From NCBI GenBank assembly GCA_045863475.1, contig BTUR01000001.1, positions 59,846-123,845 on the forward strand: a stretch of DNA of 64,000 nt. Reading direction: 5' to 3'. Position numbers and translations under genes: made by a program. Positions 846-47,228 of this stretch are shown piece by piece (the stretch's first letter is position 1; every line of letters starts with the position of its first letter). Below the pieces are notes generated by a model. The model ran no database searches and was not told the DNA's origin. It worked only from the letters and a program-made list of their open reading frames with translations. This stretch comes from Candidatus Campbellbacteria bacterium. GTDB taxonomy: Bacteria; Patescibacteriota; Minisyncoccia; Phycocordibacterales; EsbW-18.

Positions 846-917
846 GCCGACAACCCTCCGGCGTGCTACAACTCCAAGCAGATTTTCGTTTTTTGACAGA
901 TAGGGAAAGGAGACACT

Positions 918-2291: not shown

Positions 2292-2311
2292 CAACCTTTC
2301 TTTTCTATCGA

Positions 2312-2348
2312 GCGCGTCCCGGCTAGCCGGGACGCGCTCGTCTTTTTC
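2312..2348 (+). terminator. Rho-independent terminator
   Basis: gcgcgtcccggctagccgggacgcgc perfect hairpin followed by tcgtcttttt. Confidence 0.7.
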
Positions 2349-2365
2349 AAAAATTCTTTATCACC

Positions 2366-3244
2366 ATGGCGTATACTTTCCCCATGCTGCAGAATGTAAA
2401 ACTCTTTTTGTTCTCATTTGTACTTCTTGTGTTTGCAACGGGAAGTATTTGGTATGTCTTGCGCGACGTGGAGCGCGAGCCGACGCTCACGGTTGCGTTT
2501 CTTGATGTCGGACAAGGTGATGCAATTTTTATTGAGAGTCCATCGGGGAAACAAATGCTCATTGATGGTGGGCCGGATAAAAGTGTGGTGCGAGAACTCT
2601 CACGTGTCATGCCATTTTATGACCGCACGATTGATGTCGTCATTAACACACATCCTGACCGCGACCACATCGGCGGGTTACCCGAAGTGCTCAGACGCTA
2701 CCGTGTTGCGCAAGTGTTTGATCCCGGCGTGGAATCGGATTCAGGGACGTACGGGTACTACCGACAACTTATTGAATCAAAGGACATTGAATACATAGCC
2801 GCACGCCGAGGTCAGATAATTGATTTCGGTGATGGAACATATGCAGAAATTTTATTTCCCGACCGGGACCTCAACGGGATTTCAAATGACAATAATGCAT
2901 CGGTTGTTGCGCGTGTCGTGTATGCGAGCACGTCTGTAATGCTTACCGGCGACGCTCCGAAGAGTGTTGAGCAGTATCTTGCTGCACTCGGCGGTGATGC
3001 ATTGGATTCCGATATTTTGAAGGCCGGACATCACGGCTCGCGCACCTCAAGCGGAGAGTTGTTTGTCGTGGCGGTTTCTCCCGTGTGGGCAATTATCTCG
3101 GCGGGGAAGGATAATTCGTACAATCATCCGCACGAAGAGGTGCTGCAAATTTTTGCATCATCAAGTGTCGCAGTGTTGGGTACCTACGATCTCGGCACCA
3201 TTATTTTTGAAAGCGACGGAAAAGAGTTTGTTCTACAAAAATAA
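2366..3244 (+). CDS. ComEC/Rec2-related metallo-beta-lactamase-fold domain protein (stand-alone, membrane anchored)
   Basis: FLDVGQGDAIFIESPSGKQMLIDGG...HPDRDHIGGL...LKAGHHGSRTSS motifs of the ComEC C-terminal MBL domain; N-terminal TM helix. Confidence 0.7.
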   Translation: MAYTFPMLQNVKLFLFSFVLLVFATGSIWYVLRDVEREPTLTVAFLDVGQGDAIFIESPSGKQMLIDGGPDKSVVRELSRVMPFYDRTIDVVINTHPDRDHIGGLPEVLRRYRVAQVFDPGVESDSGTYGYYRQLIESKDIEYIAARRGQIIDFGDGTYAEILFPDRDLNGISNDNNASVVARVVYASTSVMLTGDAPKSVEQYLAALGGDALDSDILKAGHHGSRTSSGELFVVAVSPVWAIISAGKDNSYNHPHEEVLQIFASSSVAVLGTYDLGTIIFESDGKEFVLQK

Positions 3245-4225: not shown

Positions 4226-4317
4226 CTTGTCCACATAAGGCTTTTTTCCGAAAAAAAGCCTTATTTTTCGTGGTATTATTTGGGGTGGCAACTGAAGCCG
4301 CCGATTTTTCATTGTTC

Positions 4318-7300: not shown

Positions 7301-10300
7301 CAAACACTGAGAACGCAACGATTGAAGTACAATCCGATGACTTTGAGTCCAGTTTCCAGTCAGCATATCTCCAATACGTTGGGTCAGGTATCGCGGGGAA
7401 CGTGTTTGGCTCTGTCCCGAATGCAGATCTCGCCCGGCTCGTTTTTCAGGAGTCGGCGAACGCAGCGATATACACAACAAATGACGTCCCGATTATTTTT
7501 GGCATAAATAGTGCTGAAGTCGCACGCTTCAGTGGAACGAGCTTTGGTATCGGTACGACATCACCATACGCTACGCTGTCCGTTGCGGGTGATATTGCAC
7601 TGACTGGCGGTTTATACGATAGTACCGCATCGCTCGGTGCAGATGGCTTCGTGTTGCAGACAACAGCCACAGGTGTTGAGTGGGTTTCAACATCATCGCT
7701 TAACATCACCCAAGACCTTTCCGGCTACTTCACACTCGCTGACTGGTACGCAACAACAACGGACGGGCTTGCTGAAGGACTCACAAATCTCTATAACCAA
7801 ACACACACAGGCGAGGTGACTGGGGCAACAGGTCTCACAATTGCTGATGATGTTGTCGATGAAGCGAATCTAAAAATAAACGCGGCCGTTGACGGGTATG
7901 TTATCTCTGCGTCGTCAACCGCATCTGGCGGGCTTGCGTGGGTCGCGACATCAACACTTGGATTGGGTAGTGAGTTGTTTGTTGACGATGGAAGCACACT
8001 TCGCACAGCCGGTGGAGAGGCGGTGCAGGCCGACTACTTTATTGCGACATCAACATCTGCCACTTCAACTTTCCCGATTATTGCGGGAAGTTCTGCCGCA
8101 TCAGGAAATCTCATTTTGCAGTCAACGACCAACTCGACGAAGGGTCGCATCTATCTCGAGGGGACGAGTAACGGAACGGGCCTAGGCATCCGCATCAATA
8201 ATGATTCAGGAACTGCACGGCTCGAACTGTACAACGGGACATCGGGAAACGCAGCACACATTCTTGCCGGCACCATTCTTGGCTCAGCGTTTCGAGGTTC
8301 GGCATCGTGTTCATCCGCTCCGTGCTTCAGTATCAACCCGACGCAGGCATCATTTAACTCGGCGTACACCCTTGATTGGACGAGTGGCGCGTACAATGCA
8401 ACGCGTGACATCGGCCTCGCTCGTGTCAGTGCCGGTATTCTTGGTGTTACAGGTGGACTGACAGGTGGTGGCGCACTTTCCGCAAACTATTTTACTGCCA
8501 CGTCGACGTCAGCAACATCAACGTTTTCAGGTGTTCTGAGTGTTGCGGGTGCGCTCGCAGATGGCTCTGGTAGTCCTGGCGTTTCTGGCTACGTTCTTCA
8601 ATCCACCGGAACGGGAGTAGATTGGGTTTCGACGACAACGCTCGGATTGGACGGAGGTACGAGTTTGTTTGTTGATGACGGCACCACTCTTCGCACGGCC
8701 GATGGGGAAGCAGTGCAGGCGAGCCACATCATCTCCACATCAACCGCGACCTCCACTTTTGGCGGAGACATTTCGATAACCGGCGACATTGTTCCGACTG
8801 CGGACAACACGTACTCGCTTGGTGCTTCAACAACACAGTGGAAAGATGTTTTCATCGGTCCCGGGTCACTGTACATCAACGGACAGAAGGTGATTGAGGA
8901 AGACGGGTCGAACAATATTGTCGTATCGTCTGATATCAACCAGTCACTCGTCCTTCAGACGTCGGGGAGTGGTGATGTGGAACTTAATCCGACGGGGGCC
9001 GGTCTCATTTATCTCAAGGGAAATATTAACGTTACGGGCGGTAAGGTGGTTTCCACATCCGATAATTCATTACTTGAGTTTGAAGACGGCGTCCTTGCAG
9101 GAAATCTTGCAATTGACGGCAACGCAATTACCGCAACGAACACCGATGGAAGCATTTCACTGACTCCCAACGGTGTTGGTAATCTTCTGCTCACAAGTGG
9201 TAACTTTGGCATCGGCACGTCATCTCCATACGCAGACCTTTCCGTTACGGGTGACATAGCACTCACGGGTGGTTTGTATGACAATACGGCAACACGCGGT
9301 GTTTCGGGGTATGTCCTCCAATCCACTGGCACAGGAGTTTCATGGGTCTCGACGAGCTCCTTGAATATATCCGGCGGCTCTTCGCAATGGACAACGACGG
9401 GCTCGGACATTTACTACGCGACGGGACGAGTTGGTGTGGGCACGACGGCACCTGCGTTCACACTCTCGGTTGCCGGTGACACACTACTGGACTCTAACAA
9501 TATTCGTTTTGCATCCAGCTCCGCATCATCACTTACCGTCAGTTACCTTGCCGCTGCGACATCAACGATTGTAAACAACTCCGCGTTTTCGTGGACCCTG
9601 GCGACGTCAACGACTGCAACGCCTATCTTCCGTATCGACACCACATCTGGAGGCATGGCGACAACATCTATTGCCGGCGGACTGCTCATCAACGGCGGTG
9701 CGATTTCATACGACTACGGTGCAAACGAAACATCCATTGAGAAACTCAATCTCGGCAACATGGCGTTTGATGACGACGCCGGCATCGTTTCGTGGATTAA
9801 TCTTCCCATCACGGCGTCTCCGTCCATCGGCACTCCGCAGAGCTATTCCGCGCAAATTGATGACAATATCCTCCTGACTATTTATGGTGAGGCAGACGGT
9901 TCAGGTGGTGCACAGAATTTGCGTGTTGGTGTTGGTACATCAACGCCGTATGCGCGCTTTGCCATTATGGGTGCCGCTGGTTCTACTGATATATTCCAAA
10001 TTGCTTCATCAACCGGAGCGAGTGTTCTTACGGTGACAGCTGCGGGGAAGGTGGGAATTGGCACGACGACCCCGTACACGACGTTGGCTATCATTGGACC
10101 CGATGAAGCACCAACGACAGCGACGACAACCAACGGAGGACTCGGTATTCGTGGTACGGGAACAACAGTCGAGCTGACTATGGGTACGAACGTTGAAGGT
10201 TCAGAAGCATATGCATGGTTACAGGGTAAAAATTATGTGACACCAGGTATATACTATCCGATTATCCTTAACCAAAACGGCGGCAACGTCGGTGTAGGTA

Positions 10301-11100
10301 CCTCAACGCCAACTCAGACGTTCTCAGTGGAGGGGACGGTTGCGTTCAACGGACTCGGAACGGTTGGCGAGATTCAACCAGATGCACTCTGTATAGGCAG
10401 TGATGGAGAGGTAATGGTGAACACAGGAGCGACGGACTGCACCCTATCATCCATTCGTTTCAAACACGACGACCAAGACCTGGCCATCGGCTTAGACGAG
10501 CTCCTACAATTGCGCCCAGTGTCATTCGTGTACAACGAAATGGATGAACGAAGAGTTGGTTTTATTGCCGAGGATGTTGATGCTGTTTCAGGTCTCGACC
10601 CTCTCATCTTCCGTGAAGAAGACGGAACCCCGCGCGGTGTTCGTTATGGTGATATGGTTTCACTTGTCGTCAAATCAATACAGGAACTCAACTACAAGGT
10701 GGACCAGGCACTCGCGGCAAGCGGTGCAGCAATCCAAGGTGGTATCGCGCGATTTACGGAACTCATTGCGGACAAGGTTACGACAAAAGAACTTTGTCTG
10801 GATGATGTGTGTGTGACGCGTGACGAACTGCAAGAACTTCTTGATAATGCAAACATTGATAGCACGCCTCCAAGCGGCGGGGGAGACACAACACCGCCTT
10901 CAGGCACAACAACGCCGCCGACAGACGGGACGGGCACGACAACCGACCCCGCCCCCGAACCTGACCCGACCCCTGATCCGACGCCGGAGCCAGAACCAAC
11001 CCCGGAACCAACGCCGGAACCAACACCTGAACCTGAGCCAGAACCTGAACCCGAGCCCGAGCCAGAACCTACTCCTGAACCCGAACCAATAACCCCGTAA
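4318..11100 (+). CDS. Giant (~2260 aa) secreted fibre-like surface protein: signal peptide, YadA-head/Hep_Hag-like Gly-rich beta-repeats, repeated ~55-aa modules, peptidase-S74 intramolecular chaperone domain, Pro/Glu/Thr repeat tail
   Basis: Signal peptide MTERTPTKALLTSIFLLGSLLGPLFSEA; repeats like AIAIGNSNEAYS / SVAVGSNNALDG / AIAIGVESSGG; S74 motif SSIRFKHDD...LRPVSFVYNE...GFIAEDV...SLVVKSIQEL; C-terminal PEPTPEPEPEP. Confidence 0.8.
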   Translation: MTERTPTKALLTSIFLLGSLLGPLFSEAETTVEDPFATGSTTPTLFDRYATFSEGAQGVIFGAFEKTLADVLVGFRLYDEFSAGAERTVLDGFTAFADGALSATYTYENAANILHTATLASVSDAVDSVGGSVAFGRRSYVTAVDTVFAFAERAVVDTTDATVENAQRMTRVARSLVSLDTFVVRSTTEEEKEKLTPKQEPTVVIKNNTLTASGALAWNTLGGVPDVAIDAAKNSLAASAEATTGLFERTRLALRRWLGIGDDTMVAVPGTNTTTATTTVIERIVERPTTVTQVLRSSGVSYADLINAIAGLRNELQPQIDLAMERPRTVSHSGDDDDDGGDGGSSGDVTEDDLSDNSIEDLSDVAAMTETSGDLLYWNGATWTNIATSSLGISGGSSQWTTSGSDIYYTTGNVGVGTTSPDERLTVGGNIHATGSVDIDSGSEYQIGGTGILTRTSSGAVLLGDYNTSVTRGTNALELQSAPGDTTNFAQGNSSIVIGMWNRASSTNAIAIGNSNEAYSADDILVGYGNMTRETAAAGTQSDSTIFGRANEIWNVNNSLALGDDNSLTGGFAGLERQVVVGASNSVEGAGYTSVFGYDNTLNAASSYLYAVALGSTNILGTTPAYSVAVGSNNALDGARTVAVGSNVYAGGPEAIAIGVESSGGNMFALGYRAISIGVNTQANADGAIAIGNGIVNAVASSTQIGPSDTAKLTILGATGSEGFVGIGTTTPATNLVVDGDVSITGGLYDSGTSLGSNGMVLQSTGTGIDWVSTSSLNITQDLSAYLTLADWYATTTDGLAEGLTNLYNQTHTGEVTGATGLTIADDVVDEANLKINAAVDGYVISASSTASGGLAWVATSSLGFGSGSGVVGSGTTGQVAYYAADGTAVTGTSSVFIAPSGNVGIGSTTPLSVLTVSGPAATISIDNSSIGGRIYQLRNGVSPVGRFEIFDVSANETRLAIDSDGKTAIGTSTPIEDARLFIYGGANVDIRTAANTENATIEVQSDDFESSFQSAYLQYVGSGIAGNVFGSVPNADLARLVFQESANAAIYTTNDVPIIFGINSAEVARFSGTSFGIGTTSPYATLSVAGDIALTGGLYDSTASLGADGFVLQTTATGVEWVSTSSLNITQDLSGYFTLADWYATTTDGLAEGLTNLYNQTHTGEVTGATGLTIADDVVDEANLKINAAVDGYVISASSTASGGLAWVATSTLGLGSELFVDDGSTLRTAGGEAVQADYFIATSTSATSTFPIIAGSSAASGNLILQSTTNSTKGRIYLEGTSNGTGLGIRINNDSGTARLELYNGTSGNAAHILAGTILGSAFRGSASCSSAPCFSINPTQASFNSAYTLDWTSGAYNATRDIGLARVSAGILGVTGGLTGGGALSANYFTATSTSATSTFSGVLSVAGALADGSGSPGVSGYVLQSTGTGVDWVSTTTLGLDGGTSLFVDDGTTLRTADGEAVQASHIISTSTATSTFGGDISITGDIVPTADNTYSLGASTTQWKDVFIGPGSLYINGQKVIEEDGSNNIVVSSDINQSLVLQTSGSGDVELNPTGAGLIYLKGNINVTGGKVVSTSDNSLLEFEDGVLAGNLAIDGNAITATNTDGSISLTPNGVGNLLLTSGNFGIGTSSPYADLSVTGDIALTGGLYDNTATRGVSGYVLQSTGTGVSWVSTSSLNISGGSSQWTTTGSDIYYATGRVGVGTTAPAFTLSVAGDTLLDSNNIRFASSSASSLTVSYLAAATSTIVNNSAFSWTLATSTTATPIFRIDTTSGGMATTSIAGGLLINGGAISYDYGANETSIEKLNLGNMAFDDDAGIVSWINLPITASPSIGTPQSYSAQIDDNILLTIYGEADGSGGAQNLRVGVGTSTPYARFAIMGAAGSTDIFQIASSTGASVLTVTAAGKVGIGTTTPYTTLAIIGPDEAPTTATTTNGGLGIRGTGTTVELTMGTNVEGSEAYAWLQGKNYVTPGIYYPIILNQNGGNVGVGTSTPTQTFSVEGTVAFNGLGTVGEIQPDALCIGSDGEVMVNTGATDCTLSSIRFKHDDQDLAIGLDELLQLRPVSFVYNEMDERRVGFIAEDVDAVSGLDPLIFREEDGTPRGVRYGDMVSLVVKSIQELNYKVDQALAASGAAIQGGIARFTELIADKVTTKELCLDDVCVTRDELQELLDNANIDSTPPSGGGDTTPPSGTTTPPTDGTGTTTDPAPEPDPTPDPTPEPEPTPEPTPEPTPEPEPEPEPEPEPEPTPEPEPITP
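6718..6899 (+). repeat. Intragenic direct repeat copy A (~180 bp identical to 7768-7949)
   Basis: Identical DNA encoding AEGLTNLYNQTHTGEVTGATGLTIADDVVDEANLKINAAVDGYVISASSTASGGLAWVAT in both copies; antisense ORFs 6738..6944 and 7791..8006 share identical translations. Confidence 0.85.
7768..7949 (+). repeat. Intragenic direct repeat copy B
   Basis: See copy A; flanking ~80 bp diverged at synonymous and nonsynonymous sites. Confidence 0.85.
10860..11097 (+). repeat. Low-complexity (ccn-gaa/gag-cca) tandem repeat encoding TPPSG...PEPTPEPEPEPEP tail
   Basis: Visible short-period repeat cctgaacc/cgagcc; antisense translation is GSGVGSG. Confidence 0.8.
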
Positions 11101-11106
11101 TCTCCC

Positions 11107-14100
11107 ATGCGTTTTTCTCGTAGAACAATATATGTAGTAGTCGGGGTGATTGCGTTGATTGTTGCTTTGTACGCGCTGGTCACAACAGTGCGCGGTGATA
11201 CGTTTTTCGGAATTTCTCTGCGCTCGGGTTCTTTGAGCGACGGACTTATTGCGCATTGGACGTTTGACGGTAAGTACATGACACCGAATGTGCGGGATGC
11301 AGCCGGAAGTTACCACGGTGTATTAACAAACCAAACGGCAACGACAACACGTATCGGACGCATCGGGCAGGCGCTCGAATTTGACGGTGACAATGACTAC
11401 GTCAACCTCGGCACCATCCCGCTCAGCGACCCACTGCAGCTCTCTGACGATGTACTCACTATTTCTGCGTGGTTCTATCAAAAATCAGGGGGCGACAGCT
11501 TTCAACGCATTATCGACAAATCAAGCAACACGGGTGCGACAAACGGCTGGGCGTTTTTTGCCGACCCCAGTGATCCGAACTCCATATGGTTTCAATCTGC
11601 CGGTTCTGAACTTCGTTCCGCGGATAACGTCTACAATCAGAACGAATGGACACACGCGGCAGTCGTGTTTCGCGCCAATGATGTCAAAAAGATATACGTA
11701 AATGGCCAAGAGGTTTCGTTACAAACATCAAACAACCTAAACATCCCCAATTCAGCTGTCGGTGCCCGCATTGGTACGTGGTATAACGCCACGACGCGTG
11801 AATGGAACGGCTATCTCGATGATATCCGCGTGTACAACAGACTGCTTTCGGCAAACGAAATCAAGCGTTTGTACGGACTCGGCAACACGACGCGGATTTC
11901 AAAAACAATTTCTGTCGGCAGTATCGGTGCAACGGCCGACTCCGGGCTCGTCGGCCACTGGACGTTTGACGGTAAACACATGACACCGAATGTGCGGGAT
12001 ACCAGCGGGCAAGCGAATCATGGCGCACTCGCGAACTTTTCTGCTACGACCACTGCGATTGGCCGCATTGGTCAGGCACTTGAATTTGATGGATTGGACG
12101 ATGTTGTTGCTATTACACACAACAGCGTGCTCAATCCGTCGGGCAGTTATACCGTCGCGGCATGGGTATACCCACAAACCCTTCCTACAGTGAGCAACGG
12201 ACAATGGATTGGGATAGTTGCAAAAGGGAATACAGGGGAAACATCCGCGAGCAACCACCCATATGTTATCGCGTACCACCCTGTCGGTGGGGGAAGCCCG
12301 GTCGGCTTCGGTGTTGGACTCGAAAACAGCTCTGGATCAAACTGCAATGCATTTTCAAGTGATGCGGAACCAGCGGGAGCGTGGTATCACGTTGTCAGCC
12401 GTTTCAATGACAGTTCCAATGTGCTTGAAGTTTTCGTCAACGGTGTTTCTCAGGGAAGTGATGCATGTAGTTTAAGCCCCAACACTGGGAACTCGCGCCC
12501 TGTTTGGATTGGAGATGACGAACACACATCAGGACTTCGATTTGACGGTGTCATAGATGACGTCCGTATCTATAATCGCGCTCTTGTTGATGACGAAATA
12601 CAACGGCTCTACGATCAGGGTTCTGGCACCAGAATTACCTACACACCACCTGCGGAAGAAAACACTGCGCCGACGGTAAGTGATTCGGGGAGGAGTCCAT
12701 TTCACGGTGCGGATCTTGGCGGCTCTTCGTCCATAAAGCTCTTCATGAATACATGGACGGATCCGGAGGGGGATTCTATTGAATATTATTTTGAATTTTT
12801 CCAGAACGCGGCGTTTTGCAGTGGTGGAACAGGGATACTAAACAGTGGGTGGATTAGTGACCCAACAGCGACCGGAGGATTCACCGTAGCACTATCCGCT
12901 GGCAGCACATATTCATGGCATGTAAAGGCAAGGGACGAACACGGACTTGAGAGTGATTACAACGCCTGTTATGTGTTTACGAACAGTATCGGCGGCAGCT
13001 GTCCGTATGTGTTCGGTTGGGATGGAGAACAGTATCAATTCGAAGCAGATATCTACGGCTCCGGCGGCTTGGGGTACAAGAAATGGGGAGCATCCGACTT
13101 CGTGCAACCCTCTCCAAACAGGACGTATGTCCTGAAGTACGTAGAACCCCGAAATGGAGCGTTTGAGTGGCGCATCGTGGGTGACCTCAGTGAAATCAAC
13201 TACTTTGACCTCTTCCGTATGTATTCGTATTTTGTGCCGGAGGATCGTGACATCATCGTTGAGTCGCCGACGCTGGGCTCGGGTATGAGCGCGACGAGTA
13301 CGCTCCATACCATATCAACGGCACCGCTGTCGGCTCTGTCGGCGACGCGCCTTGATACGAACGAAGACGTTACGAGCGCTCTGTCAGCGCGCGACGAAGA
13401 CAAAGTCATCGTCAATAAGAACAAAAAAGAGACATATGAACCCGTACAAATAGAAGTCGATTTCGGCGACATCTCACGCTATTCGACGAAGAAGCTCGTT
13501 GTCGGCGGCTCAACAACGTACCCAACCACCGAAGAGGGTATCGCGCGCAAACAACTCTACGGTCGGGAGTGGGGTTTGTACGTGCAGGACGCGGCAGGGC
13601 AGTGGCAGAAAGTGCCGTACGAAAAATACAGCCCGACAAAACCGCTCTCATTCGAAAGTGTACTCGCCGTTGATATCTCAGACATCTTTATTTCGGAGAA
13701 CACAAAACTGCGCCTCGAGTACTTATATAAGGTATACGTGGATTACGTTGCATTGGACGTTACCGAGGATTTGCCGCTCGCGGTCGCCGAGGAACATCCA
13801 ATTACGTATGCTGACTTGCATGACTTTGGCGGATGGCACGATTTCGATAAGGATGGCAATGTGCCTGACTACTACAACGTTTCGCCACTTGAGGAGGATT
13901 ACGAGGATTTTCCGGGATACTACACCCGTTTCGGCGATGTTACTCCGCTTCTTGAAAAGCGTGACGACAAATTTGTTATTCTTGCGAAGAGAGACGAGAT
14001 AACCGTGAAGAACGCGCTACCCAAAATTGAACCCCCGACAGGATACAAGCGCGTGTACATGCTCGATGTGACCGGCTACTACAAGGCGCTCACCAAGACG

Positions 14101-14310
14101 ATGACGCCTATGACCGTTGAACCCATGCCGTTCTCGGGTATGAGTGCGTTCCCGTACCCTGATACGGAGCACTACCCGGACACGCCGGAGTATCAGGAGT
14201 ATCGGGCCAAATACAATACGCGGTACCTCTCTCCTGACACTCCAAGGAGCGGCTCCTCTATTACTGATGCGGCAAAGCGGCTCCTGGATGGCGTCCTTGG
14301 CGGGGAATAG
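11107..14310 (+). CDS. Membrane-anchored protein with two LamG-like (concanavalin A-like lectin) domains and a long Tyr/Pro-rich C-terminal region
   Basis: N-terminal TM helix; duplicated motif L(I/V)(A/G)HWTFDGK(Y/H)MTPNVRD..G..HG.L.N.(T/S)ATTT.IGRIGQALEFDG.(N/D)D(Y/V)V plus I(R/D)VYNR(A/L)L...EI.RLY; 7-nt gap after giant gene suggests one operon. Confidence 0.75.
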   Translation: MRFSRRTIYVVVGVIALIVALYALVTTVRGDTFFGISLRSGSLSDGLIAHWTFDGKYMTPNVRDAAGSYHGVLTNQTATTTRIGRIGQALEFDGDNDYVNLGTIPLSDPLQLSDDVLTISAWFYQKSGGDSFQRIIDKSSNTGATNGWAFFADPSDPNSIWFQSAGSELRSADNVYNQNEWTHAAVVFRANDVKKIYVNGQEVSLQTSNNLNIPNSAVGARIGTWYNATTREWNGYLDDIRVYNRLLSANEIKRLYGLGNTTRISKTISVGSIGATADSGLVGHWTFDGKHMTPNVRDTSGQANHGALANFSATTTAIGRIGQALEFDGLDDVVAITHNSVLNPSGSYTVAAWVYPQTLPTVSNGQWIGIVAKGNTGETSASNHPYVIAYHPVGGGSPVGFGVGLENSSGSNCNAFSSDAEPAGAWYHVVSRFNDSSNVLEVFVNGVSQGSDACSLSPNTGNSRPVWIGDDEHTSGLRFDGVIDDVRIYNRALVDDEIQRLYDQGSGTRITYTPPAEENTAPTVSDSGRSPFHGADLGGSSSIKLFMNTWTDPEGDSIEYYFEFFQNAAFCSGGTGILNSGWISDPTATGGFTVALSAGSTYSWHVKARDEHGLESDYNACYVFTNSIGGSCPYVFGWDGEQYQFEADIYGSGGLGYKKWGASDFVQPSPNRTYVLKYVEPRNGAFEWRIVGDLSEINYFDLFRMYSYFVPEDRDIIVESPTLGSGMSATSTLHTISTAPLSALSATRLDTNEDVTSALSARDEDKVIVNKNKKETYEPVQIEVDFGDISRYSTKKLVVGGSTTYPTTEEGIARKQLYGREWGLYVQDAAGQWQKVPYEKYSPTKPLSFESVLAVDISDIFISENTKLRLEYLYKVYVDYVALDVTEDLPLAVAEEHPITYADLHDFGGWHDFDKDGNVPDYYNVSPLEEDYEDFPGYYTRFGDVTPLLEKRDDKFVILAKRDEITVKNALPKIEPPTGYKRVYMLDVTGYYKALTKTMTPMTVEPMPFSGMSAFPYPDTEHYPDTPEYQEYRAKYNTRYLSPDTPRSGSSITDAAKRLLDGVLGGE

Positions 14311-17717: not shown

Positions 17718-18095
17718 ATGAAGAGATTCGTCCTCTGCGCGACGCTCGCGACGTTCGTCGCGGCGCTCGCCGTCTCCATCCCGGCCCAAGCAACGGACCC
17801 GAGTCCGCCGCTTGCCGAGTTGTCGATGGAGGCGCCGTACGCGCCCACCGATATCAATACCTTCTGCGAAGTCCAGATCGGCCTGACCCCTGCCATCCTC
17901 ACCGAGCACGTCCTCGTCCTGCCCGACCTCACCGGCGACCGTGTCGACCGCGACGTCGGCTGGGTCGACATCTCCGCGAACCCCTTCTTCGTGCGAACGG
18001 TCGACACAACGACCACTTCGAGCTCCATCGGCGCCGACCGACAGCGTGACACCGGCGAGAAACGAGGGGGCGCCCTGCGCGCCCATCCGACCTGA
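17718..18095 (+). CDS. Small secreted protein of unknown function on a high-GC (~66%) island
   Basis: Sec signal peptide MKRFVLCATLATFVAALAVSIPAQA; RBS aagaggtg; GC3-rich codon usage unlike flanking fusA; own promoter-like and terminator. Confidence 0.55.
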   Translation: MKRFVLCATLATFVAALAVSIPAQATDPSPPLAELSMEAPYAPTDINTFCEVQIGLTPAILTEHVLVLPDLTGDRVDRDVGWVDISANPFFVRTVDTTTTSSSIGADRQRDTGEKRGGALRAHPT

Positions 18096-18250: not shown

Positions 18251-18616
18251 ATGCCCAGGTACTGTCTCACGTTTGGGAACAATTACTTCGACAATGGACT
18301 CGAGAACGGGTGCGTCGAGGGCAACATGTGCCGAGTCATCTTCGCGGATGATGAGCAGGTGGCCAGACGAATTGGCCTGATTATGGAGGGTGAGGAGGTT
18401 AACGCCCACGAGACTCTCGGTCGGCTCCTCACGGTGAATGAGACAAAGGGCGAGATCAGTCTCAACTCATGGGATCCCGAGAAGATGATGGAGGAGGTGC
18501 TCCAAATTCTGATTACCCAAGGCGAAGAGGGTCTCCAGATTGCTCGAGGTGGCCAGGGTGAGCCAATCGGGTTGACACGCCTCGTGTCCACCGTGCCCGC
18601 CGTAAAGCTCGAGTAA
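18251..18616 (+). CDS. Hypothetical cytoplasmic protein (121 aa)
   Basis: Strong RBS gaggagggggtaaag immediately upstream of ATG; no signal peptide; followed by terminator hairpin. Confidence 0.5.
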   Translation: MPRYCLTFGNNYFDNGLENGCVEGNMCRVIFADDEQVARRIGLIMEGEEVNAHETLGRLLTVNETKGEISLNSWDPEKMMEEVLQILITQGEEGLQIARGGQGEPIGLTRLVSTVPAVKLE

Positions 18617-18624
18617 TACTGAGG

Positions 18625-18680
18625 AGCAGGACAACAACCGCCCAACGAGATCGTTCAATGAATCCGTTGGGCGATTTCGT
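18625..18680 (+). terminator. Rho-independent terminator
   Basis: ccgcccaacg...cgttgggcg hairpin followed by atttcgttttttt. Confidence 0.55.
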
Positions 18681-18699
18681 TTTTTTGAATCAAGGTAGC

Positions 18700-18845
18700 C
18701 GCACGATATTCCTGAGGGATTAGTGCTATATCGTGCGGCGTAGTACGAAGTGAGCTTGTTATTTGCAAAAACTCGCGGAGGCCGAAGAGGCCGAGTGTGA
18801 ACGCCCCGCCAACAGGCGGGGACGTGTGTTTTGCAAATAATCAAG
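18700..18845 (+). other. Inverted-repeat-bounded structured element: hairpin ccgcacgatat/atatcgtgcgg, then 12-bp perfect IR ttatttgcaaaa...ttttgcaaataa enclosing GC-rich nested stems
   Basis: Perfect 11-bp and 12-bp inverted repeats read directly; inner cgccccgcc aaca ggcggggacg stem; palindromic core TTTGCAAA in both arms. Confidence 0.4.
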
Positions 18846-18971
18846 CGAGCGGAGAGTTTATGTACTTTTTATGCAATGTGTGCTATCGTCGTTGCGCAGA
18901 GTCGTAAGGCTCTTTATTAGCTCTTTTCGGCAAGTATCGCAATACGCCGAAGAGGGAGAAGTTAGCATAGT

Positions 18972-19271
18972 ATGGAAGGAGCAAAATTGTACGTCGGCAA
19001 CCTTAGCTACGGAACGACTGAAGAGTCGATCCGCGAGCACTTTGGACAAGCTGGCTCAGTCGCATCAGCGACAATTATTCGCGACAAGATGACCGGCCGT
19101 TCAAAAGGTTTCGGGTTCGTCGAAATGTCATCTGCAGAAGACGCGCAGAAGGCAATTGAGATGTTCCACGGAAAAGACTTCGACGGACGCGCGCTGACGG
19201 TAAACGTAGCACGCCCGATGACGGAGCGACCTCCGCGCCGTGACAACTACGACAACGGTGGACGTTGGTAA
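18972..19271 (+). CDS. RNA-recognition-motif (RRM) RNA-binding protein
   Basis: RNP-2 LYVGNL and RNP-1 KGFGFVEM motifs; Arg/Gly/Asp-rich C-terminal tail. Confidence 0.8.
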   Translation: MEGAKLYVGNLSYGTTEESIREHFGQAGSVASATIIRDKMTGRSKGFGFVEMSSAEDAQKAIEMFHGKDFDGRALTVNVARPMTERPPRRDNYDNGGRW

Positions 19272-19282
19272 GCCACTCTCTT

Positions 19283-19362
19283 TGATTTTTTAAGAGCACG
19301 CGTCCGTTTCTACTGAAACGGCGCTCACGCTCGGGCTCTTCGCCCTCCGCAAGGCTCTTAAA
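19283..19362 (+). other. Second IR-bounded element (ttttttaagagc ... gctcttaaaaaa) enclosing hairpin ccgtttc tact gaaacgg
   Basis: 12-bp perfect inverted repeat flanking a GC-rich 57-nt core, immediately downstream of the RRM gene. Confidence 0.4.
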
Positions 19363-19375
19363 AAATAAAGTATCG

Positions 19376-19412
19376 TTTGATTGATAAAAACCTTGGGCTT
19401 TGCCCAAGGTTT
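19376..19412. terminator. Bidirectional rho-independent terminator
   Basis: gataaaaaccttgggctttgcccaaggtttttatc: 12-bp perfect stem with A/T runs both sides. Confidence 0.7.
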
Positions 19413-19482
19413 TTATCGTTTCTTTACAATTTTTAAGTGCAGGCATACCATTTATCATAGAAGTACACCAACGAGAGGAGGG

Positions 19483-19806
19483 ATGTGTATGTCCGTTTTG
19501 AGAGACCACGTGGTTGAGACGCTGATGGCTCACCGCTCTCAGATTCGACGCCTGCTTACCATCATGACTCCCAACCTTCCACGGAGGGCGAGCATGGTCA
19601 GGCGCATCAACACGCTGATCAATCAGAAGGAGCTTTCCCCAGAGTTCGGGGTGGGGCTCAAGATGGTTCTCCACGCCAGAATTCCTTCTGGGGCGAGGTC
19701 ACTCGTCGAGCTGGGGAGAACTGCAAGGCAGTTTCGCCATCTTCTGGAAGCAACAGATCAGTCGATGCAGATGACCAAGAAGGTGCACGTGCTCAAGGCC
19801 GTGTGA
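19483..19806 (+). CDS. Hypothetical protein (107 aa; alternative start ATG at 19489)
   Basis: RBS gagaggagg just upstream; intact ORF. Confidence 0.45.
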   Translation: MCMSVLRDHVVETLMAHRSQIRRLLTIMTPNLPRRASMVRRINTLINQKELSPEFGVGLKMVLHARIPSGARSLVELGRTARQFRHLLEATDQSMQMTKKVHVLKAV

Positions 19807-19977: not shown

Positions 19978-20893
19978 GGCCGTACTGAATATGATTACTT
20001 CAATTAACTGCATACCGCGGAGCATATAGATGCGAGCCCTTGTGGTGCGCCTCGAAACCCTCCGCTCAAAAAGCGGTTTTTTTGTTCTCATAGACAGTCG
20101 ATGACCTTTGACAACTGCATAAGCAATAAAGAATCAAATGCTTATTTCGCGCAAGCGAAGTAAGCGCAGGTATCTCGTGCGGCTCATCTAGCGCCGCGCG
20201 GGAATCAAACAACGTGTACCGCGCAGCGGTGTGTTGGTGCACGGAATCGCAGACGCATGTAGGTGCGTATGCGATAAAGACGGTTTTTAGATTTCCTAAC
20301 GGGAGATTTAAAGGGCGTATGGTGGATGCCTTGGTTCTATGTGGCGATGAAGGACGTGGTGTAACTGCGATAAGCTTCGGGGAGGTGTTAAGCAACCTTT
20401 GATCCGGAGATTTCCGAATGGGGAAACCCTGTCGAGTAACCCTCGATAACCGACGCAGCGATGCGCGGAGCATACCCTGGGAAGTGAAACATCTCAGTAC
20501 CAGGAGGAAAAGAAAACAAATGTCATTCCCTTAGTAGCGGCGAGCGAAACGGGAGCAGCCCAAACCACACTGTACTTGTATAGTGTGGCGTTGTAGGGCG
20601 GTAACGCCTGTTTTTAACAAGGAGAAAGTTACAAAATACATCTTTAGTCGAATGCGCTGGAAAGCGCAATCCCAGAAGGTAACAGTCCTGTAGACGAAAA
20701 AGATGTATCTTTCTAGTTACCGTTCCTGAGTACCTCAAGACACGAATAGCTTGGGGGAATCCGCCGGAACTAACCGGCAAGGCTACATACACATAGAGAC
20801 CGATAGTGAACTAGTACCGCGAGGGAAAGGTGAAAAGAACCCCGGAGAGGGGAGTGAAATAGATCTGAAACCATATGCCTACAAGGAGTCAGA

Positions 20894-21228
20894 GCCGAGC
20901 TCTACTTTTTGTTTTTAATTTTCTTTGAACATGTTGAAGGTACGCTCGTGCATATGCACGTTGTGTATCTGATACAAAACACGGTGAGCCACGAACTGTA
21001 CGTTGGTGTAACACGCGACCTTAAAAAGAGGTTGGTGACACATAACAGCGGTGCGGTTACGGCAACGCGACGCAGCGGCGAGTGGGTCTTGATTTACGCG
21101 GAGGCGTATCGAGATGAGCACGACGCGCGCGAGCGAGAGCATCACCTCAAACAGCGCGGCGCGGCAAAACGCGGCGTGTATGAAAGAGTTCGAAGAAGTT
21201 TCCTTGAAAACAAAAAGTAGAGCTTCGG
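20894..21228 (+). other. Intervening sequence (IVS)-like insertion in the 23S helix-25 region, closed by a ~17-bp stem (gccgagctctactttttg ... caaaaagtagagcttcgg)
   Basis: rRNA similarity is interrupted after CAAGGAGTCAGAGC and resumes at GCGTGCCTATTGAAGAATGAGCCAACGAGTT; the insertion termini are an almost perfect inverted repeat. Confidence 0.65.
20954..21220 (+). CDS. GIY-YIG nuclease-superfamily protein (UPF0213-like, ~88 aa) encoded inside the 23S insertion
   Basis: VYLIQN...ELYVGVTRDLKKRLVTHNSG...LIYAEAYRDEHDAREREHHLK GIY-YIG motifs; ORF exactly fills the loop, stop codon TAG lies in the 3' stem arm. Confidence 0.7.
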   Translation: MHVVYLIQNTVSHELYVGVTRDLKKRLVTHNSGAVTATRRSGEWVLIYAEAYRDEHDAREREHHLKQRGAAKRGVYERVRRSFLENKK

Positions 21229-22640
21229 TCATGGCGTGCCTATTGAAGAATGAGCCAACGAGTTTAAGTATGCGGCGAAGCTAAATCCTTTGTCGGATGA
21301 AGCTGCAGGGAAACCGAGTGTTAATAGCGCGTACTTTGAAAGCAAGGAGGTCGGACGTGTAGGTGAGCAATCACACACGCGTTCGGCATTCTCGCTTTCA
21401 AAAGGTCGTATACTTAAGACCCGAAGCTAGGTGAGCTACCCATGAGCAGGGTGAACTTTGTCGAAAGATGAAGGGAGGCCCGAACCGGTTGATGGTGCAA
21501 AATCTTCGGATGACTTGTGGGTTGGAGTGAAAAGCTTATCGAACCTAGTAATAGCTGGTTCTCTCCGAAACAGCTTTTGGGCTGGCGTACAGCGTACCTC
21601 TTGGGGGTAGAGCACTGGATGGTCCGGATAGGGAGAAATCTCGCTGGACCAATCAAACTCCGAATACCAAGAGTAAGTACTGTGCAGTTAGACCGTGGGG
21701 GCTAAGCTCCACTGGTCAAAAGGGAAACAGCCCTTGATCTCAAGTTAAGGTCCCTAAATCGATGCTAAGTGCAAGTCGAGGAGGTGAAATTTCTCAGACA
21801 CTGAGGAAGTTGGCTTAGAAGCAGCCATCTTTTAAAGAAAGCGTAACAGCTCACTCACTCAGAGATTTCGCGCCACAGACTATCGGGGCTAAGTATCGTA
21901 CCGAAACTGAGGATGACACGTGCGTTCGCGCATGTGTCGTGGTAGGAGAGCATTTCCATCTGCGATGAAGCCGAAGGCGTGAGCCACGGTGGAGCGATGG
22001 GAAGAGAGAATGTTGGTACAAGTAACCGCAATGCGGGTGAAATACCCGCACGCCGAAAAACCGAGGTTTCCTTCGCGATGGTAATCAGCGAAGGGTTAGT
22101 CGGGCCTAAGCGAATGGCGAAAGCCGGACGTGATGGACACACGGTTAATATTCCGTGACTCGGCTGTAATTCGATGGAGAGACGGAGTGAAGTATATATC
22201 GCACATTATTGGATTTGTGTCGGGCATGCGAGGAGGTCTGTTTGGCAAATCCGGCAGACACTACTCCAGAGGCATGTTCGGGAACCCAATCTACGGAACG
22301 GGGAACGATATAAAGCGCGCTTCCAAGAAAATCTTCTAAGGTTAATTACAGACGACCCGTACCGCAAACCGACTCCGGTGGTTAGCTCGAGTAGAGTAAG
22401 GCGAACGAGTGAGAGGTCCTCAAGGAACTCGGCAAAAAAGCGACCGTAAGTTAGCAATAAGGTCTGCCTGCGCAGCAGTGCGTGGGCCGCAGCTAAAGTC
22501 TTCCTGGCGACTGTTTATCAAAAACACAGCTCCCTGCGAACTCGTAAGAGGATGTATAGGGGGTGACACCTGACCAATGCCAGAAGGTCAAGTATGGAGG
22601 GTCTTCTCCGCAAGGAGAAGGCTGAGCTATATAAGCCCTG

Positions 22641-22702
<62 letters not shown>

Positions 22703-22765
22703 ACGCCGATGAGAACAAATGCTATGGTACGTAAATAGTCTGTGCGCATGGCGAAGTGCCACGTG

Positions 22766-23425
22766 CTATGCAGTTTCTTCAGGTGCGGCTGTTTCTCCTT
22801 CTCCCTCCGCAGTTTCATCCTTACCTTTCTTTTCCACTTCGATTGCATCCATGTCAATCGGTGCAACCGGCTCTTCGATTTCTTCTTGCGGCTGAGAAAT
22901 TGCGGCAACCACTTCGTCTCCTTCGTTGAGAATCGTAACACCTGCAGGCACGGGTATGTCTTTAATGACAACTTGACTGTCAAACGTTTCAAGCGATGAC
23001 ACATCAACAGTGAGCTCGTGTGGCAAGTCTTTTGGCATCGCCTCAACTTCCACCTCGTGCATCACCTTCACCAGTGTACCACCCAAGTTCTTAACTGCGG
23101 GCGCCTCACCTGTGAACAACAGCGGGACATCGATGCGAAGCTTCTTTCCTTTCTCGATAACGTAAAAATCAACGTGCTCAAATACATCCGTGACCGGATG
23201 TTTTGTAACTTCATGAACGAGCGCGTCTTTCGGCTCACCAACACCTTCCAGTGTGATGATGGATGATTCACCGGCCGAGCGGAACACTTTTTCAAATGTC
23301 TTGCGGTCAACTGCAATCGGCGTGGATTCCTCTTTCGGACCGTAAAAAACCGCCGGAATCTTGCCGCCTTTGCGCAAGCTCTCCGCGTTTCCTGCCTCTC
23401 GTTTTTCTACTGTAAGCGTCAACAT
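22766..23425 (-). CDS. rplY: 50S ribosomal protein L25 / general stress protein Ctc
   Basis: L25/Ctc family (LTVEKREAG..SLRKGGKIPAVFYG, two beta-barrel domains, acidic tail); start set to MLTLTVEKR. Confidence 0.85.
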   Translation of the reverse strand: MLTLTVEKREAGNAESLRKGGKIPAVFYGPKEESTPIAVDRKTFEKVFRSAGESSIITLEGVGEPKDALVHEVTKHPVTDVFEHVDFYVIEKGKKLRIDVPLLFTGEAPAVKNLGGTLVKVMHEVEVEAMPKDLPHELTVDVSSLETFDSQVVIKDIPVPAGVTILNEGDEVVAAISQPQEEIEEPVAPIDMDAIEVEKKGKDETAEGEGETAAPEETA

Positions 23426-23465
23426 AGGCGTCCTATACTCGCATAAAACCTCGCCGAAGGCAAGA

Positions 23466-24338
23466 TTAGAACCCCGCAAAAAGCTTCATGCGCTTCTCGA
23501 CGACCTCCTGGACTGCAACAAGCGCTTGTTTTGTGTATTTGTAGGGAGCAAGCTCGTCCGGGTTCTCCTGCAAACTGAGCTGGAGTGCTTTTCGGTACGC
23601 CTGTCTGAGTTCCGTGGAAACATGCACGAGCGCAATGCCGTTTTTGATGACCGCCGCGTAATCCTCGTCAGATGTTCCGGTGCCGCCGTGCAAAACGAGC
23701 GGGACAGCGACCGCACCGGCAATCTCTTTAACCCGTTCCGGGTTAAGCCGCGGATCCATACCGCTCTTCAGTGTTCCGTGAATGGTGCCGACCGCAGGAG
23801 CAAGCAGGTCAACGCCGGTTTCCTCAACAAATCGCTTTGCATCCGCCGCTGTCGTCATCATCTCGGAAGTGACCGCTGCTCCCTCGGGAAGCGCATCAAG
23901 CACTTGTGAACCGACACCAATAAATCCGAGTTCCCCTTCAATCAACGTCGCGCCTCCTTTCTCTTTTGCGTATGCGGCACACTCACGCGCCTTGGTAATA
24001 TTCTCCTCAAGTGAAAGTTGTGCGCCGTCAAAAATGACCGAGTCGAAACCAGCGTCAATTGCCTCCTTCACGCGCTCAACTGAATAGGTGTGATCGGCGT
24101 TAAGATAGACGGAGAGACCTGATTCTTCACGCGCTGCGCGCACCATTACGGCAAGTTCACGAACGCCGAACGCATCACGCTCGCCCTCTGACGCTCCGAT
24201 GACGACCGGAAGACCGGTTGCCTTTGCCGCGGCAACGACGGCGCGAAACATCTCTATGTTGCCGACGTTAAAATGGCCGACTGCCTTTCCCTGCGCGCGA
24301 TATTCTTGGAGCGTCTCTATAAGCGTCTGCATGCACAT
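23466..24338 (-). CDS. fba: Class II fructose-1,6-bisphosphate aldolase
   Basis: FbaA/tagatose-bisphosphate aldolase family motifs (VGHFNV, LHGGTG.SDED). Confidence 0.85.
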   Translation of the reverse strand: MCMQTLIETLQEYRAQGKAVGHFNVGNIEMFRAVVAAAKATGLPVVIGASEGERDAFGVRELAVMVRAAREESGLSVYLNADHTYSVERVKEAIDAGFDSVIFDGAQLSLEENITKARECAAYAKEKGGATLIEGELGFIGVGSQVLDALPEGAAVTSEMMTTAADAKRFVEETGVDLLAPAVGTIHGTLKSGMDPRLNPERVKEIAGAVAVPLVLHGGTGTSDEDYAAVIKNGIALVHVSTELRQAYRKALQLSLQENPDELAPYKYTKQALVAVQEVVEKRMKLFAGF

Positions 24339-44485: not shown

Positions 44486-44545
44486 GATATTCGTACTATA
44501 TCATGGCAAGCAAAAAGTGCTCTCGTACGGTACACTAATGGTCGT

Positions 44546-45793: not shown

Positions 45794-45932
45794 CTTCCAC
45801 CTAAAATAAGTTGTCTGTACAAGTAAAGCTTTAAAAAACGAAACCAGGGTAGAAACCGCCTGTTCTAAAAGAGGAAAGTGGGTTACATTAGTATGGTTCC
45901 CATTAAAACGACGCCAATAGCAACTACACAAC

Positions 45933-47201: not shown

Positions 47202-47228
47202 TTTCGTTTGATTTCAATAATCGACCGT

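What the first reader, a model, noticed from the sequence alone, without database searches (positions are those of the whole stretch)
18700..19412. RRM gene flanked on both sides by structured elements bounded by perfect 12-bp inverted repeats
Upstream, ttatttgcaaaa...ttttgcaaataa encloses GC-rich nested stems and is preceded by an 11-bp perfect hairpin. Downstream, ttttttaagagc...gctcttaaaaaa encloses another hairpin and is followed by a perfect 12-bp bidirectional terminator. Both arms of the upstream IR contain the palindromic core TTTGCAAA, which is operator-like. The elements could be small ncRNAs, MITE-like insertions or insulators around the RNA-binding protein gene.
Basis: seen in the sequence. 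Interest (0 to 1): 0.5.

Follow-up and report, generated by a model that had tools for sequence, protein, structure and literature searches.

The report
Paired structured elements flanking RRM gene
The two "inverted-repeat" elements on either side of this small RNA-binding-protein gene are two diverged, oppositely oriented copies of one undescribed ~100-nt folded element. It recurs next to the same gene in related ultrasmall (Patescibacteria) bacteria, keeps its three-armed fold through many compensatory mutations, and has no known function.

Summary
All four repeats are real. The upstream element (18751-18848, + strand) and the downstream element read on the minus strand (19374-19277) are homologous. 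They share an identical ~30-nt core, and 13 of their 35 base pairs differ by compensatory double changes.

Covariance-model searches found 9 copies in 7 Patescibacteria genomes. Six lie beside the orthologous RRM gene: four upstream and two downstream in this orientation. A seventh lies downstream of an RRM gene but points at the 23S promoter. Two lie elsewhere (recA/efp, ruvC).

On an unfitted alignment of 7 copies, 95% of cells pair (49% or less when slid). 27 of 36 pairs show double changes. The stems vary while the junction and loops are nearly invariant. The element strand folds better than its complement in 8 of 9 copies.

There is no Rfam match. TTTGCAAA is not conserved, so the operator idea fails. 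The outer repeats covary rather than keep their sequence, which argues against a MITE.

Upstream copies end just before the RRM promoter. Both window copies point into the gene, each behind a terminator-like hairpin. Best guess: a new strand-specific structured RNA that acts on read-through or antisense transcripts as a boundary, processing or protein-binding element. Function is untested.

The parts
18636..18681 (+). Terminator-like hairpin plus T-run after the lineage-specific ORF 18251-18616.
   Evidence: Inverted repeat I6; terminator scan; MFE structure.
18698..18739 (+). 12-bp perfect hairpin (GCCGCACGATAT / ATATCGTGCGGC) on the 5' side of copy A. It has no T-run. It is not part of the homologous unit, but other copies carry a hairpin at the equivalent place.
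   Evidence: The alignment with L010 shows that homology starts only after this hairpin.
18743..18860 (+). Copy A of the three-way-junction element. The covariance-model match is 18751-18848. P2 arm is about 18772-18799, with invariant CGGAG...GAAGA...CGAG. P3 arm is about 18801-18825. Tandem G.A boxes GUGAGC / GCGAGC lie at the foot of P1.
   Evidence: (107 bits).
18861..18889 (+). Inferred RRM promoter: -35 TGTACT (18861-18866), 17-nt spacer, extended -10 TGcTATCGT (18881-18889). It is conserved in all relatives, with or without the element.
   Evidence: Read from sequences. This is an inference from sigma-70-like consensus and conservation. The transcription start is not mapped.
18898..18960 (+). 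Conserved RRM mRNA leader. Hairpin 1 is 18898-18913. Hairpin 2 is 18921-18956, with an invariant apex GUAUCGCAAUAC and the Shine-Dalgarno GAGGGAG (18952-18958) in its 3' arm.
   Evidence: alignment of the window with L003, L005 and L125.
18972..19271 (+). RRM-domain RNA-binding protein gene, 99 aa. Another gene caller used the alternative TTG start at 18987, giving 94 aa.
19277..19374 (-). Copy B of the same element, read on the minus strand. Its 3' end lies 6 nt from the RRM stop codon.
   Evidence: (112 bits). A degenerate orthologous copy occurs in L125.
19383..19417 (.). 16-bp perfect hairpin with a flanking A-run and T-run. It is the intrinsic terminator of the RRM gene and looks bidirectional. 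It lies on the 5' side of copy B, in the same position as hairpin 18698-18739 relative to copy A.

Best explanation
The RRM gene is bracketed by two diverged copies (62% identical) of one undescribed structured element of about 100-120 nt. The copies are inverted and both point into the gene.

The fold is a three-way junction:
- a long A/U-rich closing helix P1, with a tandem G.A box at its foot;
- an arm P2 with an invariant GGA/GA internal loop and a GNNGA loop;
- a GC-rich arm P3 with a bulged A.

The fold is strand-specific and maintained by selection. The family is low-copy, occurs in a clade of Patescibacteria, and is recurrently linked to the RRM gene.

The most likely mode of action is inferred, not shown. 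The element works as RNA carried on transcripts that leak through the adjacent terminator-like hairpin. On the upstream side these are read-through transcripts from the upstream genes. On the downstream side they are antisense transcripts. There the element would act as a boundary element: a processing site, a stop site or a protein-binding site. Candidate routes are RNase III-type cleavage of the >20-bp P1 helix, or recognition of the invariant purine-rich core by a protein, possibly the RRM protein itself. The result would be to insulate the RRM promoter and gene from incoming transcription on both sides.
For: Shown:
- The two window copies are homologous in opposite orientation. The core pattern matches twice against 0 expected. 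All 35 pairs are kept and 13 are compensatory.
- Searches with covariance models R1 and R2 found 9 copies in 7 genomes.
- On an alignment not fitted to the structure, 95.2% of cells pair, against 49% or less when slid. 27 of 36 pairs have double changes. 0 of 500 shuffles reach the observed values.
- The stems are variable (P1 3/32 and P3 0/20 positions invariant). The unpaired core is conserved (12/20 invariant).
- The element strand is more stable than its complement in 8 of 9 copies. It has 22 G.U pairs against 6. For L125 the energies are -30.1 and -16.1 kcal/mol.
- The RRM link is recurrent. Four upstream copies end 8-10 nt before the conserved -35 box (window, L056, L053, L114). Two antisense copies lie just after the RRM stop codon (window, L125). 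One more lies after the RRM terminator in L114.
- Most copies have a terminator-like hairpin on their 5' side.

Inferred: transcription by read-through, the insulating role, and protein or RNase involvement.
Against: - There are no expression data.
- No sigma-70-like promoter was found upstream of any copy. None was predicted on the minus strand near copy B.
- A bidirectional-looking terminator sits just upstream of copy B, so it is uncertain how much minus-strand RNA covers that copy.
- Close relatives L003 (RRM 92% identical) and L005 (89%), and also L050, L116 and L121, lack the element. It is therefore dispensable.
- Two copies (L010, L081) are not near any RRM gene.
- Most RRM-linked copies were retrieved through the RRM gene, which biases the apparent association.
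- A simple insulating hairpin would not need a conserved core. The core points to a specific partner or activity that is still unidentified.
Confidence: 0.45

Rival explanations
1. A small non-coding RNA, or cis element, that is the specific binding partner or autoregulatory target of the adjacent RRM protein. The analogy is partner RNAs encoded next to their protein genes, such as ssrA-smpB or Y RNA-rsr.
For: - At least three independent placements at the RRM locus: upstream copies, the window/L125 downstream copy, and the L114 downstream copy.
- Invariant purine-rich single-stranded core.
- Strand-specific fold.
- Precedent of an RRM-gene-linked motif, Chlorobi-RRM (PMC2864571).
Against: - Upstream copies lie before the inferred RRM promoter, not in the mRNA.
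- No promoter or terminator of its own is recognisable.
- L010 and L081 copies have no RRM gene within 4-8 kb.
- Many RRM orthologues lack it.
Confidence: 0.2
2. A MITE-like or other small mobile DNA element. The outer inverted repeats would be transposase-recognised ends, inserted by chance on both sides of the gene.
For: - It is found at non-homologous sites: the RRM locus, recA-efp and ruvC.
- The L010 copy is 91% identical to the window's upstream copy, with sharp homology boundaries at 18743 and 18860.
- Presence and absence vary among close relatives.
- Both orientations occur.
Against: - Terminal repeats are not conserved in sequence but covary: 14 of 18 P1 pairs have double changes. 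This is the opposite of what transposase recognition requires.
- Internal stems also covary.
- Only 2 copies occur in 64 kb and 1-2 per locus elsewhere.
- Exact-pattern scans of 596 Gb of genomes and of the metagenome collection gave one true hit each.
- No target-site duplication was seen. The flanking GCGAGC boxes are better explained as a tandem G.A helix.
- No transposase gene is nearby.
Confidence: 0.12
3. A new self-cleaving ribozyme or ligand-binding RNA. It would be a small three-way junction with an invariant core whose cleavage or binding ends or processes read-through transcripts.
For: - The conservation pattern is typical of ribozymes and aptamers: variable covarying stems with an invariant junction and internal loop.
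- It occurs in both orientations and in odd intergenic contexts.
- The size is about 80-100 nt.
Against: - No match to any Rfam ribozyme or riboswitch, even at E <= 10.
- P1 is long and stable, with no evident expression platform.
- The position is upstream of promoters rather than in 5' UTRs.
- There is no biochemical evidence.
Confidence: 0.08
4. A DNA-level element: a cruciform or single-stranded-DNA structure, or a recombination site, recognised by a DNA-binding protein. The inverted pair would allow inversion of the RRM cassette.
For: - The elements lie outside the inferred RRM transcript.
- The long A/T-rich perfect repeats could extrude as cruciforms.
- The window has an inverted pair and L114 a direct pair flanking the gene.
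- G.T and tandem G.A pairs are also tolerated in DNA.
Against: - The strand-specific asymmetry means only one strand folds well, which is poor for a cruciform.
- The two orientations lie 500 bp apart, so they cannot both sit on the lagging-strand template.
- Single copies occur elsewhere.
- No recombinase is nearby.
- No inverted-orientation variant of the RRM cassette was seen among relatives.
Confidence: 0.07
5. Operator sites (TTTGCAAA palindromes) for a transcription factor that controls the RRM gene.
For: TTTGCAAA occurs in both arms of the upstream repeat. The repeat lies close to the promoter.
Against: - The motif is not enriched: 3 matches in the window against 2.4 expected.
- It is absent from the corresponding stem in 6 of the 7 other full copies. 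In L010 it survives in only one arm (TTTGTAAA in the other). In the rest the stem has different, complementary sequences.
Confidence: 0.01

Closest known systems
Chlorobi-RRM RNA motif (Rfam RF01697; Weinberg et al. 2010, PMC2864571)
   Same: A conserved structured motif genetically linked to genes for small RRM-domain proteins in one bacterial lineage. Its function is unknown.
   Different: There is no sequence or structure match (no Rfam hit at E <= 10). It belongs to a different phylum. Chlorobi-RRM is listed as a candidate cis-regulatory element, which from my own knowledge means the 5' UTR. The element here ends before the inferred promoter, also occurs antisense downstream, and occurs away from RRM genes.
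Structured intergenic repeats such as ERIC, Correia (CREE) or REP/BIME elements (own knowledge)
   Same: Short intergenic imperfect palindromes between genes. They occur in either orientation, are often next to terminators, and affect mRNA processing or stability when transcribed.
   Different: Those families are multi-copy with conserved terminal sequences, and ERIC and Correia have TA target duplications. This element is low-copy, its ends covary, it is a three-way junction, and it has an invariant internal core.
Tandem or backup terminators and RNase III processing stems (own knowledge)
   Same: The position is immediately after a terminator hairpin and before the next promoter or gene end. 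The closing helix is long (>20 bp).
   Different: Only the window's upstream copy has a U-tract after a GC hairpin. A terminator or an RNase III site does not need a conserved junction and core.
Kink-turn (k-turn) motifs (own knowledge)
   Same: Invariant tandem G.A/A.G next to a bulge, between two helices in arm P2. In L056 and L114 the sequence fits the full k-turn consensus (CUC-UCG-GA-GCCC / GGGC-GA-GAG).
   Different: In the register supported by covariation (pair 32-53, G-C to U-A) the bulge is 1 nt, not 3. The geometry is untested.

Membership tests
Any Rfam 15 family (including Chlorobi-RRM RF01697; hammerhead, twister, twister-sister, hatchet and pistol ribozymes; 5S rRNA; riboswitches) | Covariance-model score at or above the family's gathering threshold. 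| tested here: not met
   The whole window at gathering threshold gave only LSU rRNA. Region 18600-19480 at E <= 10 gave only weak chance hits, mostly on the terminator hairpin. The best hit on the element was b55 at 16.4 bits against a gathering score of 70.
cis-regulatory 5'-UTR element / riboswitch | Lies within the 5' UTR of the regulated gene, sense strand, with an expression platform. | tested here: not met
   Upstream copies end 8-10 nt before the conserved -35 / extended -10 promoter. Three copies are antisense to the adjacent gene. The promoter is inferred, not mapped.
MITE | Terminal inverted repeats conserved in sequence among copies (transposase binding sites). | tested here: not met
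   The outer stem differs between copies with compensatory changes: 14 of 18 P1 pairs have double changes.
MITE | Target-site duplication flanking each copy. | tested here: inconclusive
   No TA or other consistent duplication was seen. The flanking GCGAGC boxes pair as a helix with tandem G.A. Filled and empty sites are not alignable.
MITE | Many dispersed copies per genome. | tested here: inconclusive
   2 copies in the 64-kb window, and 1-2 per fetched locus. Complete genomes could not be scanned.
Intrinsic (Rho-independent) terminator | GC-rich hairpin directly followed by a U-tract. | tested here: met
   Met for 19383-19417 and 18636-18681. It is NOT met for the three-way-junction elements as a family. 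Only P3 of copy A is followed by a weak U-tract.
Transcription-factor operator | Palindromic sequence conserved at orthologous sites. | tested here: not met
   TTTGCAAA is not conserved in L056, L053, L114, L081 or copy B. It is not enriched in the window.
Kink-turn | Canonical stem, 3-nt bulge, tandem sheared G.A/A.G, non-canonical stem. | tested here: inconclusive
   The GGA/GA internal loop is invariant in 7 of 7 aligned copies. The 3-nt bulge fits only L056 and L114up. The covarying pair 32-53 implies a 1-nt bulge.
Integron attC site | R''/R' core sites (RYYYAAC ... GTTRRRY) at the ends of an imperfect palindrome, next to a promoterless cassette. | tested here: not met
   By inspection of the sequences, there are no GTTRRRY / RYYYAAC boxes at the ends. 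The RRM gene has its own promoter. No integrase is nearby.
Conserved structured RNA (generic criterion) | Base pairs maintained by compensatory substitutions well above shuffled and slid controls. | tested here: met
   95% of cells paired, 26-27 pairs with double changes, 0 of 500 shuffles, and slid controls at 49% or less. R-scape is not available here.

The most novel reading that the evidence does not exclude
The element is a new class of catalytic or protein-recruiting RNA. It would be a self-cleaving ribozyme, or a specific docking site for the neighbouring RRM protein. Placed behind leaky terminators, it would cut or stop read-through and antisense transcripts. That would make it a dedicated RNA-based transcription-unit insulator in the ultra-compact genomes of Patescibacteria.
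Probability: 0.12. Interest if true: 0.85.

Novelty: new variant of a known kind. Interest (0 to 1): 0.62.

Why it matters
Patescibacteria (CPR) make up a large share of bacterial diversity. Almost nothing is known about their non-coding RNAs or about the function of their abundant small RRM proteins.

This is a compact element of about 100 nt with unusually clean covariation, an invariant core with two tandem G.A motifs, and no Rfam counterpart. It shows a repeated genetic link to an RRM gene that sits just upstream of the 23S rRNA gene.

If it is the RNA partner or target of the RRM protein, or a transcript-boundary device, it would give a first handle on post-transcriptional control in these organisms. 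It is small enough for direct biochemical testing: cleavage, probing and protein binding.

If it proves to be only a structured selfish repeat, it would still be an unusual one, because its ends evolve by compensation.

Tried and rejected
none beyond chance.
- **Rfam:** scanned at gathering threshold on the whole window and at E <= 10 on the region. Nothing relevant.
- **tRNA/tmRNA scan:** none in the window.
- **Exact look-up of the RRM protein:** not on record. The 94-aa version gave contigs 100% identical to the window, so no variation was gained.
- **Core-pattern scans:**
  - viral contigs gave 1 chance hit;
  - 596-Gb genome set gave 43 hits, of which 1 was real;
  - metagenomes gave 55 hits, of which 1 was real.

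  The rest were GC-rich chance matches rejected by the covariance model.
- **Promoters:** I looked for a sigma-70-type promoter upstream of each copy and on the minus strand near copy B. None was convincing.
- **P2a register:** the first register (UCGCG/YGUGA) showed no covariation and only 82% pairing. I replaced it with the register from the unfitted alignment.
- **Full k-turn reading:** it fits only two copies.
- **Hairpin 18698-18739 as part of the homologous unit:** it is not, because homology with L010 starts after it.
- **Neighbouring small ORFs as a shared mobile island:** no homologues in any other fetched locus and no Pfam domains.
- **Other ideas rejected:** 5S rRNA or rRNA mimicry (no covariance-model hit in the 23S or elsewhere), attC, and boxA resemblance of GCTCTTAAAAAA (wrong place, before a terminator).
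- **Literature searches:** no description of this motif was found.

Full report
**1. Observation**

The region was read directly and scanned for inverted repeats.
- All four features exist: the upstream repeat TTATTTGCAAAA/TTTTGCAAATAA (18759-18770 / 18829-18840), the preceding hairpin (18698-18739), the downstream repeat (19282-19297 / 19354-19369) and the terminator hairpin (19383-19417).
- Two details need correcting. The preceding hairpin is 12 bp, not 11. The terminator repeat is 16 nt perfect, not 12.
- The gene between them (18972-19271, +) encodes a 99-aa RRM_1 protein.
- The flanks fold far better than shuffled sequence (z = -7.0 and -8.9).
- Among 26 inverted repeats of at least 12 nt in the 64-kb window, these two are the only good ones with a wide spacer outside the 23S rRNA gene.
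- The 12-mers and the TTTGCAAA palindrome are not repeated elsewhere in the window beyond chance.

**2. The two elements are one family, in opposite orientation**

- The upstream element on the plus strand aligns with the downstream element on the minus strand over about 100 nt.
- The shared core is GCGGAGGsCGAAGAGsCCGAGyGTGArCGCC. It matches exactly twice in the window, against 0 expected.
- RNAalifold on the pair gives a three-way junction. All 35 pairs are kept in both copies, and 13 differ on both sides.
- The copies are only 62% identical, so neutral divergence of a duplication cannot explain an intact fold.
- A covariance model (R1), run without filters over the window, finds only these two copies (112 and 107 bits). 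The next hit scores 15.7 bits and is a plain hairpin.

**3. Relatives**

- The RRM protein's best homologues are from Patescibacteria/CPR, including Parcubacteria-type lineages.
- The window is 100% identical to two Logan contigs.
- Fetching the loci of RRM orthologues and scanning them with R1 or R2 gave more copies:

| Locus | Coordinates, strand | Position |
|---|---|---|
| L056 | 2301-2399 (+) | upstream of RRM |
| L053 | 2257-2370 (+), enlarged P2 | upstream of RRM |
| L114 | 1394-1490 (+) | upstream of RRM |
| L114 | 1959/1961-2057 (+) | after the RRM terminator, about 55 nt before the 23S promoter |
| L125 | 884-978 (-), degenerate | same place and orientation as the window's downstream copy |

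- Orthologous loci L003, L005, L050, L116, L120 and L121 have no copy.
- Two exact-pattern scans were independent of the RRM gene. Each gave one true hit among chance GC-rich matches. L010 lies between recA and efp, antisense. L081 lies between ruvC and a small acidic ORF.
- Neither of those loci has an RRM gene.
- In total there are 9 copies in 7 genomes.

**4. Structure and selection**

- On a MAFFT alignment of 7 copies that was not fitted to any structure, RNAalifold recovers the same architecture.
- Counting gives 95.2% of cells paired, against 31-49% when the partners are slid. 27 of 36 pairs have double changes. 0 of 500 column shuffles reach the observed values. The model-fitted alignment agrees.
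- Stems P1 and P3 are almost free in sequence (3/32 and 0/20 invariant positions). The unpaired core is conserved, with 12 of 20 positions invariant.
- Notable invariants are a GGA/GA internal loop in P2, a GNNGA loop, a bulged A in P3, and a second tandem G.A at the foot of P1 formed by flanking GCGAGC boxes. The tandem sheared G.A pairing and the k-turn likeness are my interpretation.
- The element strand folds better than its complement in 8 of 9 copies. It carries 22 G.U pairs against 6. In L125 the difference is 14 kcal/mol.
- The folded strand is therefore defined. For the downstream copies it is the strand antisense to the RRM gene.

**5. Anatomy around the gene**

- All relatives, with or without the element, share a box ATG(G/T)ACTTTTTAT followed 16-17 nt later by TGnTAnnnT. 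I read this as the RRM promoter. In the window the -35 is at 18861-18866 and the extended -10 at 18881-18889.
- The four upstream copies end 8-10 nt before the -35. They are therefore not in the RRM primary transcript unless upstream transcription reads through.
- Downstream of the promoter is a separate conserved leader. It has two hairpins, the second holding the Shine-Dalgarno sequence in its 3' arm.
- The antisense copies (window, L125, L010) sit between the stop codon of a convergent gene and that gene's terminator hairpin.
- In element orientation, most copies have a terminator-like hairpin on their 5' side. The hairpin 18698-18739 and the terminator 19383-19417 are thus positional equivalents. 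However, the hairpin is not part of the homologous unit. Homology between the window's upstream copy and L010 (91% identical) runs only from 18743 to 18860.
- In the window both copies point into the RRM gene.

**6. Mechanism**

What is shown: a strand-specific, selected three-way-junction fold with a conserved core; low copy number; repeated placement at the RRM locus; and a position behind terminator hairpins.

What is inferred:
- The element acts as RNA on transcripts that escape the preceding hairpin.
- It then serves as a boundary, through processing, stopping or protein binding, that shields the RRM promoter and gene from both sides.
- This reading explains the inward orientation, the lack of own promoters, and the placements before other promoters (the 23S promoter in L114, and L081) and against recA in L010.
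- It does not explain why the core is so conserved. That points to a specific partner, with the RRM protein an obvious candidate, or to catalysis.
- I put about 0.45 on the boundary-RNA reading, 0.2 on an RRM-partner small RNA or cis element, 0.12 on a mobile element, 0.08 on a ribozyme or aptamer, and 0.07 on a DNA-level site.
- The operator idea is contradicted by the data.

**7. Comparison with known families**

- There is no Rfam 15 match, even at E <= 10.
- Chlorobi-RRM (RF01697; PMC2864571) is the nearest precedent in concept, but it is unrelated in sequence, structure and position.
- ERIC- and Correia-type repeats resemble the element in context. They differ in copy number and in having conserved ends.
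- Literature searches found no description of this motif.
- I class it as a new family within the known kind 'conserved structured intergenic RNA motif'. Its unusual twist is a paired, inward-facing arrangement around an RNA-binding-protein gene.

**8. Limits**

- There are only 9 copies, several of them related by descent.
- Most RRM-linked copies were found through the RRM gene.
- Complete genomes could not be scanned.
- Promoters and terminators are consensus-based.
- There are no expression or biochemical data.

Noticed in passing
window 20299-22833 (+); ORF 20909-21220: The 23S rRNA gene stands alone. No 16S, 5S or tRNA gene occurs in the 64 kb. It carries an insertion after about model position 583 that encodes a GIY-YIG nuclease-like ORF. 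The whole match is only 2535 nt for a 2925-position model (1436 bits), so some rRNA regions must be reduced. Relative L056 also has a GIY-YIG ORF at the same relative place.
   Followed up: partly
window 18898-18960: The RRM mRNA leader is conserved in the window, L003, L005 and L125. It has two hairpins. The second has an invariant apex GUAUCGCAAUAC and holds the Shine-Dalgarno sequence in its 3' arm. This could be a translational control or thermosensor-type structure. More distant relatives have a different leader.
   Followed up: partly
window 17718-18095, 18251-18616, 19489-19806: Three small ORFs (125, 121 and 105 aa) surround the RRM gene. The first has a signal-peptide-like N-terminus. 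They have no Pfam domain and no homologue in any fetched relative. In L003 the EF-G gene is followed directly by the RRM gene with a 148-nt spacer. The window lineage has therefore gained about 1.3 kb upstream and about 0.6 kb downstream.
   Followed up: partly
L114 1394-1490 and 1959-2057: In this relative the RRM gene is flanked by two copies in direct orientation, not inverted. The second lies after the RRM terminator and about 55 nt before the 23S rRNA promoter.
   Followed up: yes
L125 884-978 (-): This is a degenerate, AT-rich (28% GC) orthologue of the window's downstream copy. The invariant core is lost and the fold has collapsed to a long hairpin. The stem is still kept on the antisense strand only, through 6 G.U pairs (-30.1 against -16.1 kcal/mol).
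   Followed up: yes
window 4270-11100 and 11107-14310: Two giant ORFs (2276 and 1067 aa) lie upstream of rpsG and fusA. They are not rpoB/rpoC. They have a Peptidase_S74 (endosialidase chaperone) C-terminal domain and Laminin_G_3 / sialidase-like domains. They are probably large surface or adhesion proteins.
   Followed up: partly
window about 20000-23000: Cumulative GC skew peaks near 22 kb. Gene orientation switches there from mostly plus to mostly minus. The ribosomal protein L25/Ctc gene (22766-23479, -) overlaps the 3' end of the 23S match by about 70 nt.
   Followed up: no
window 44000-48000: This stretch has clearly lower GC (0.40-0.43, against about 0.52 elsewhere). It may be a foreign or island-like segment.
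   Followed up: no
window 19353-19366: GGCTCTTAAAAAA, the 3' arm of the downstream repeat on the plus strand, resembles the rRNA antitermination boxA consensus GCTCTTTAACAA. It lies before a terminator and about 600 nt upstream of the 23S promoter, so it is probably a coincidence.
   Followed up: no
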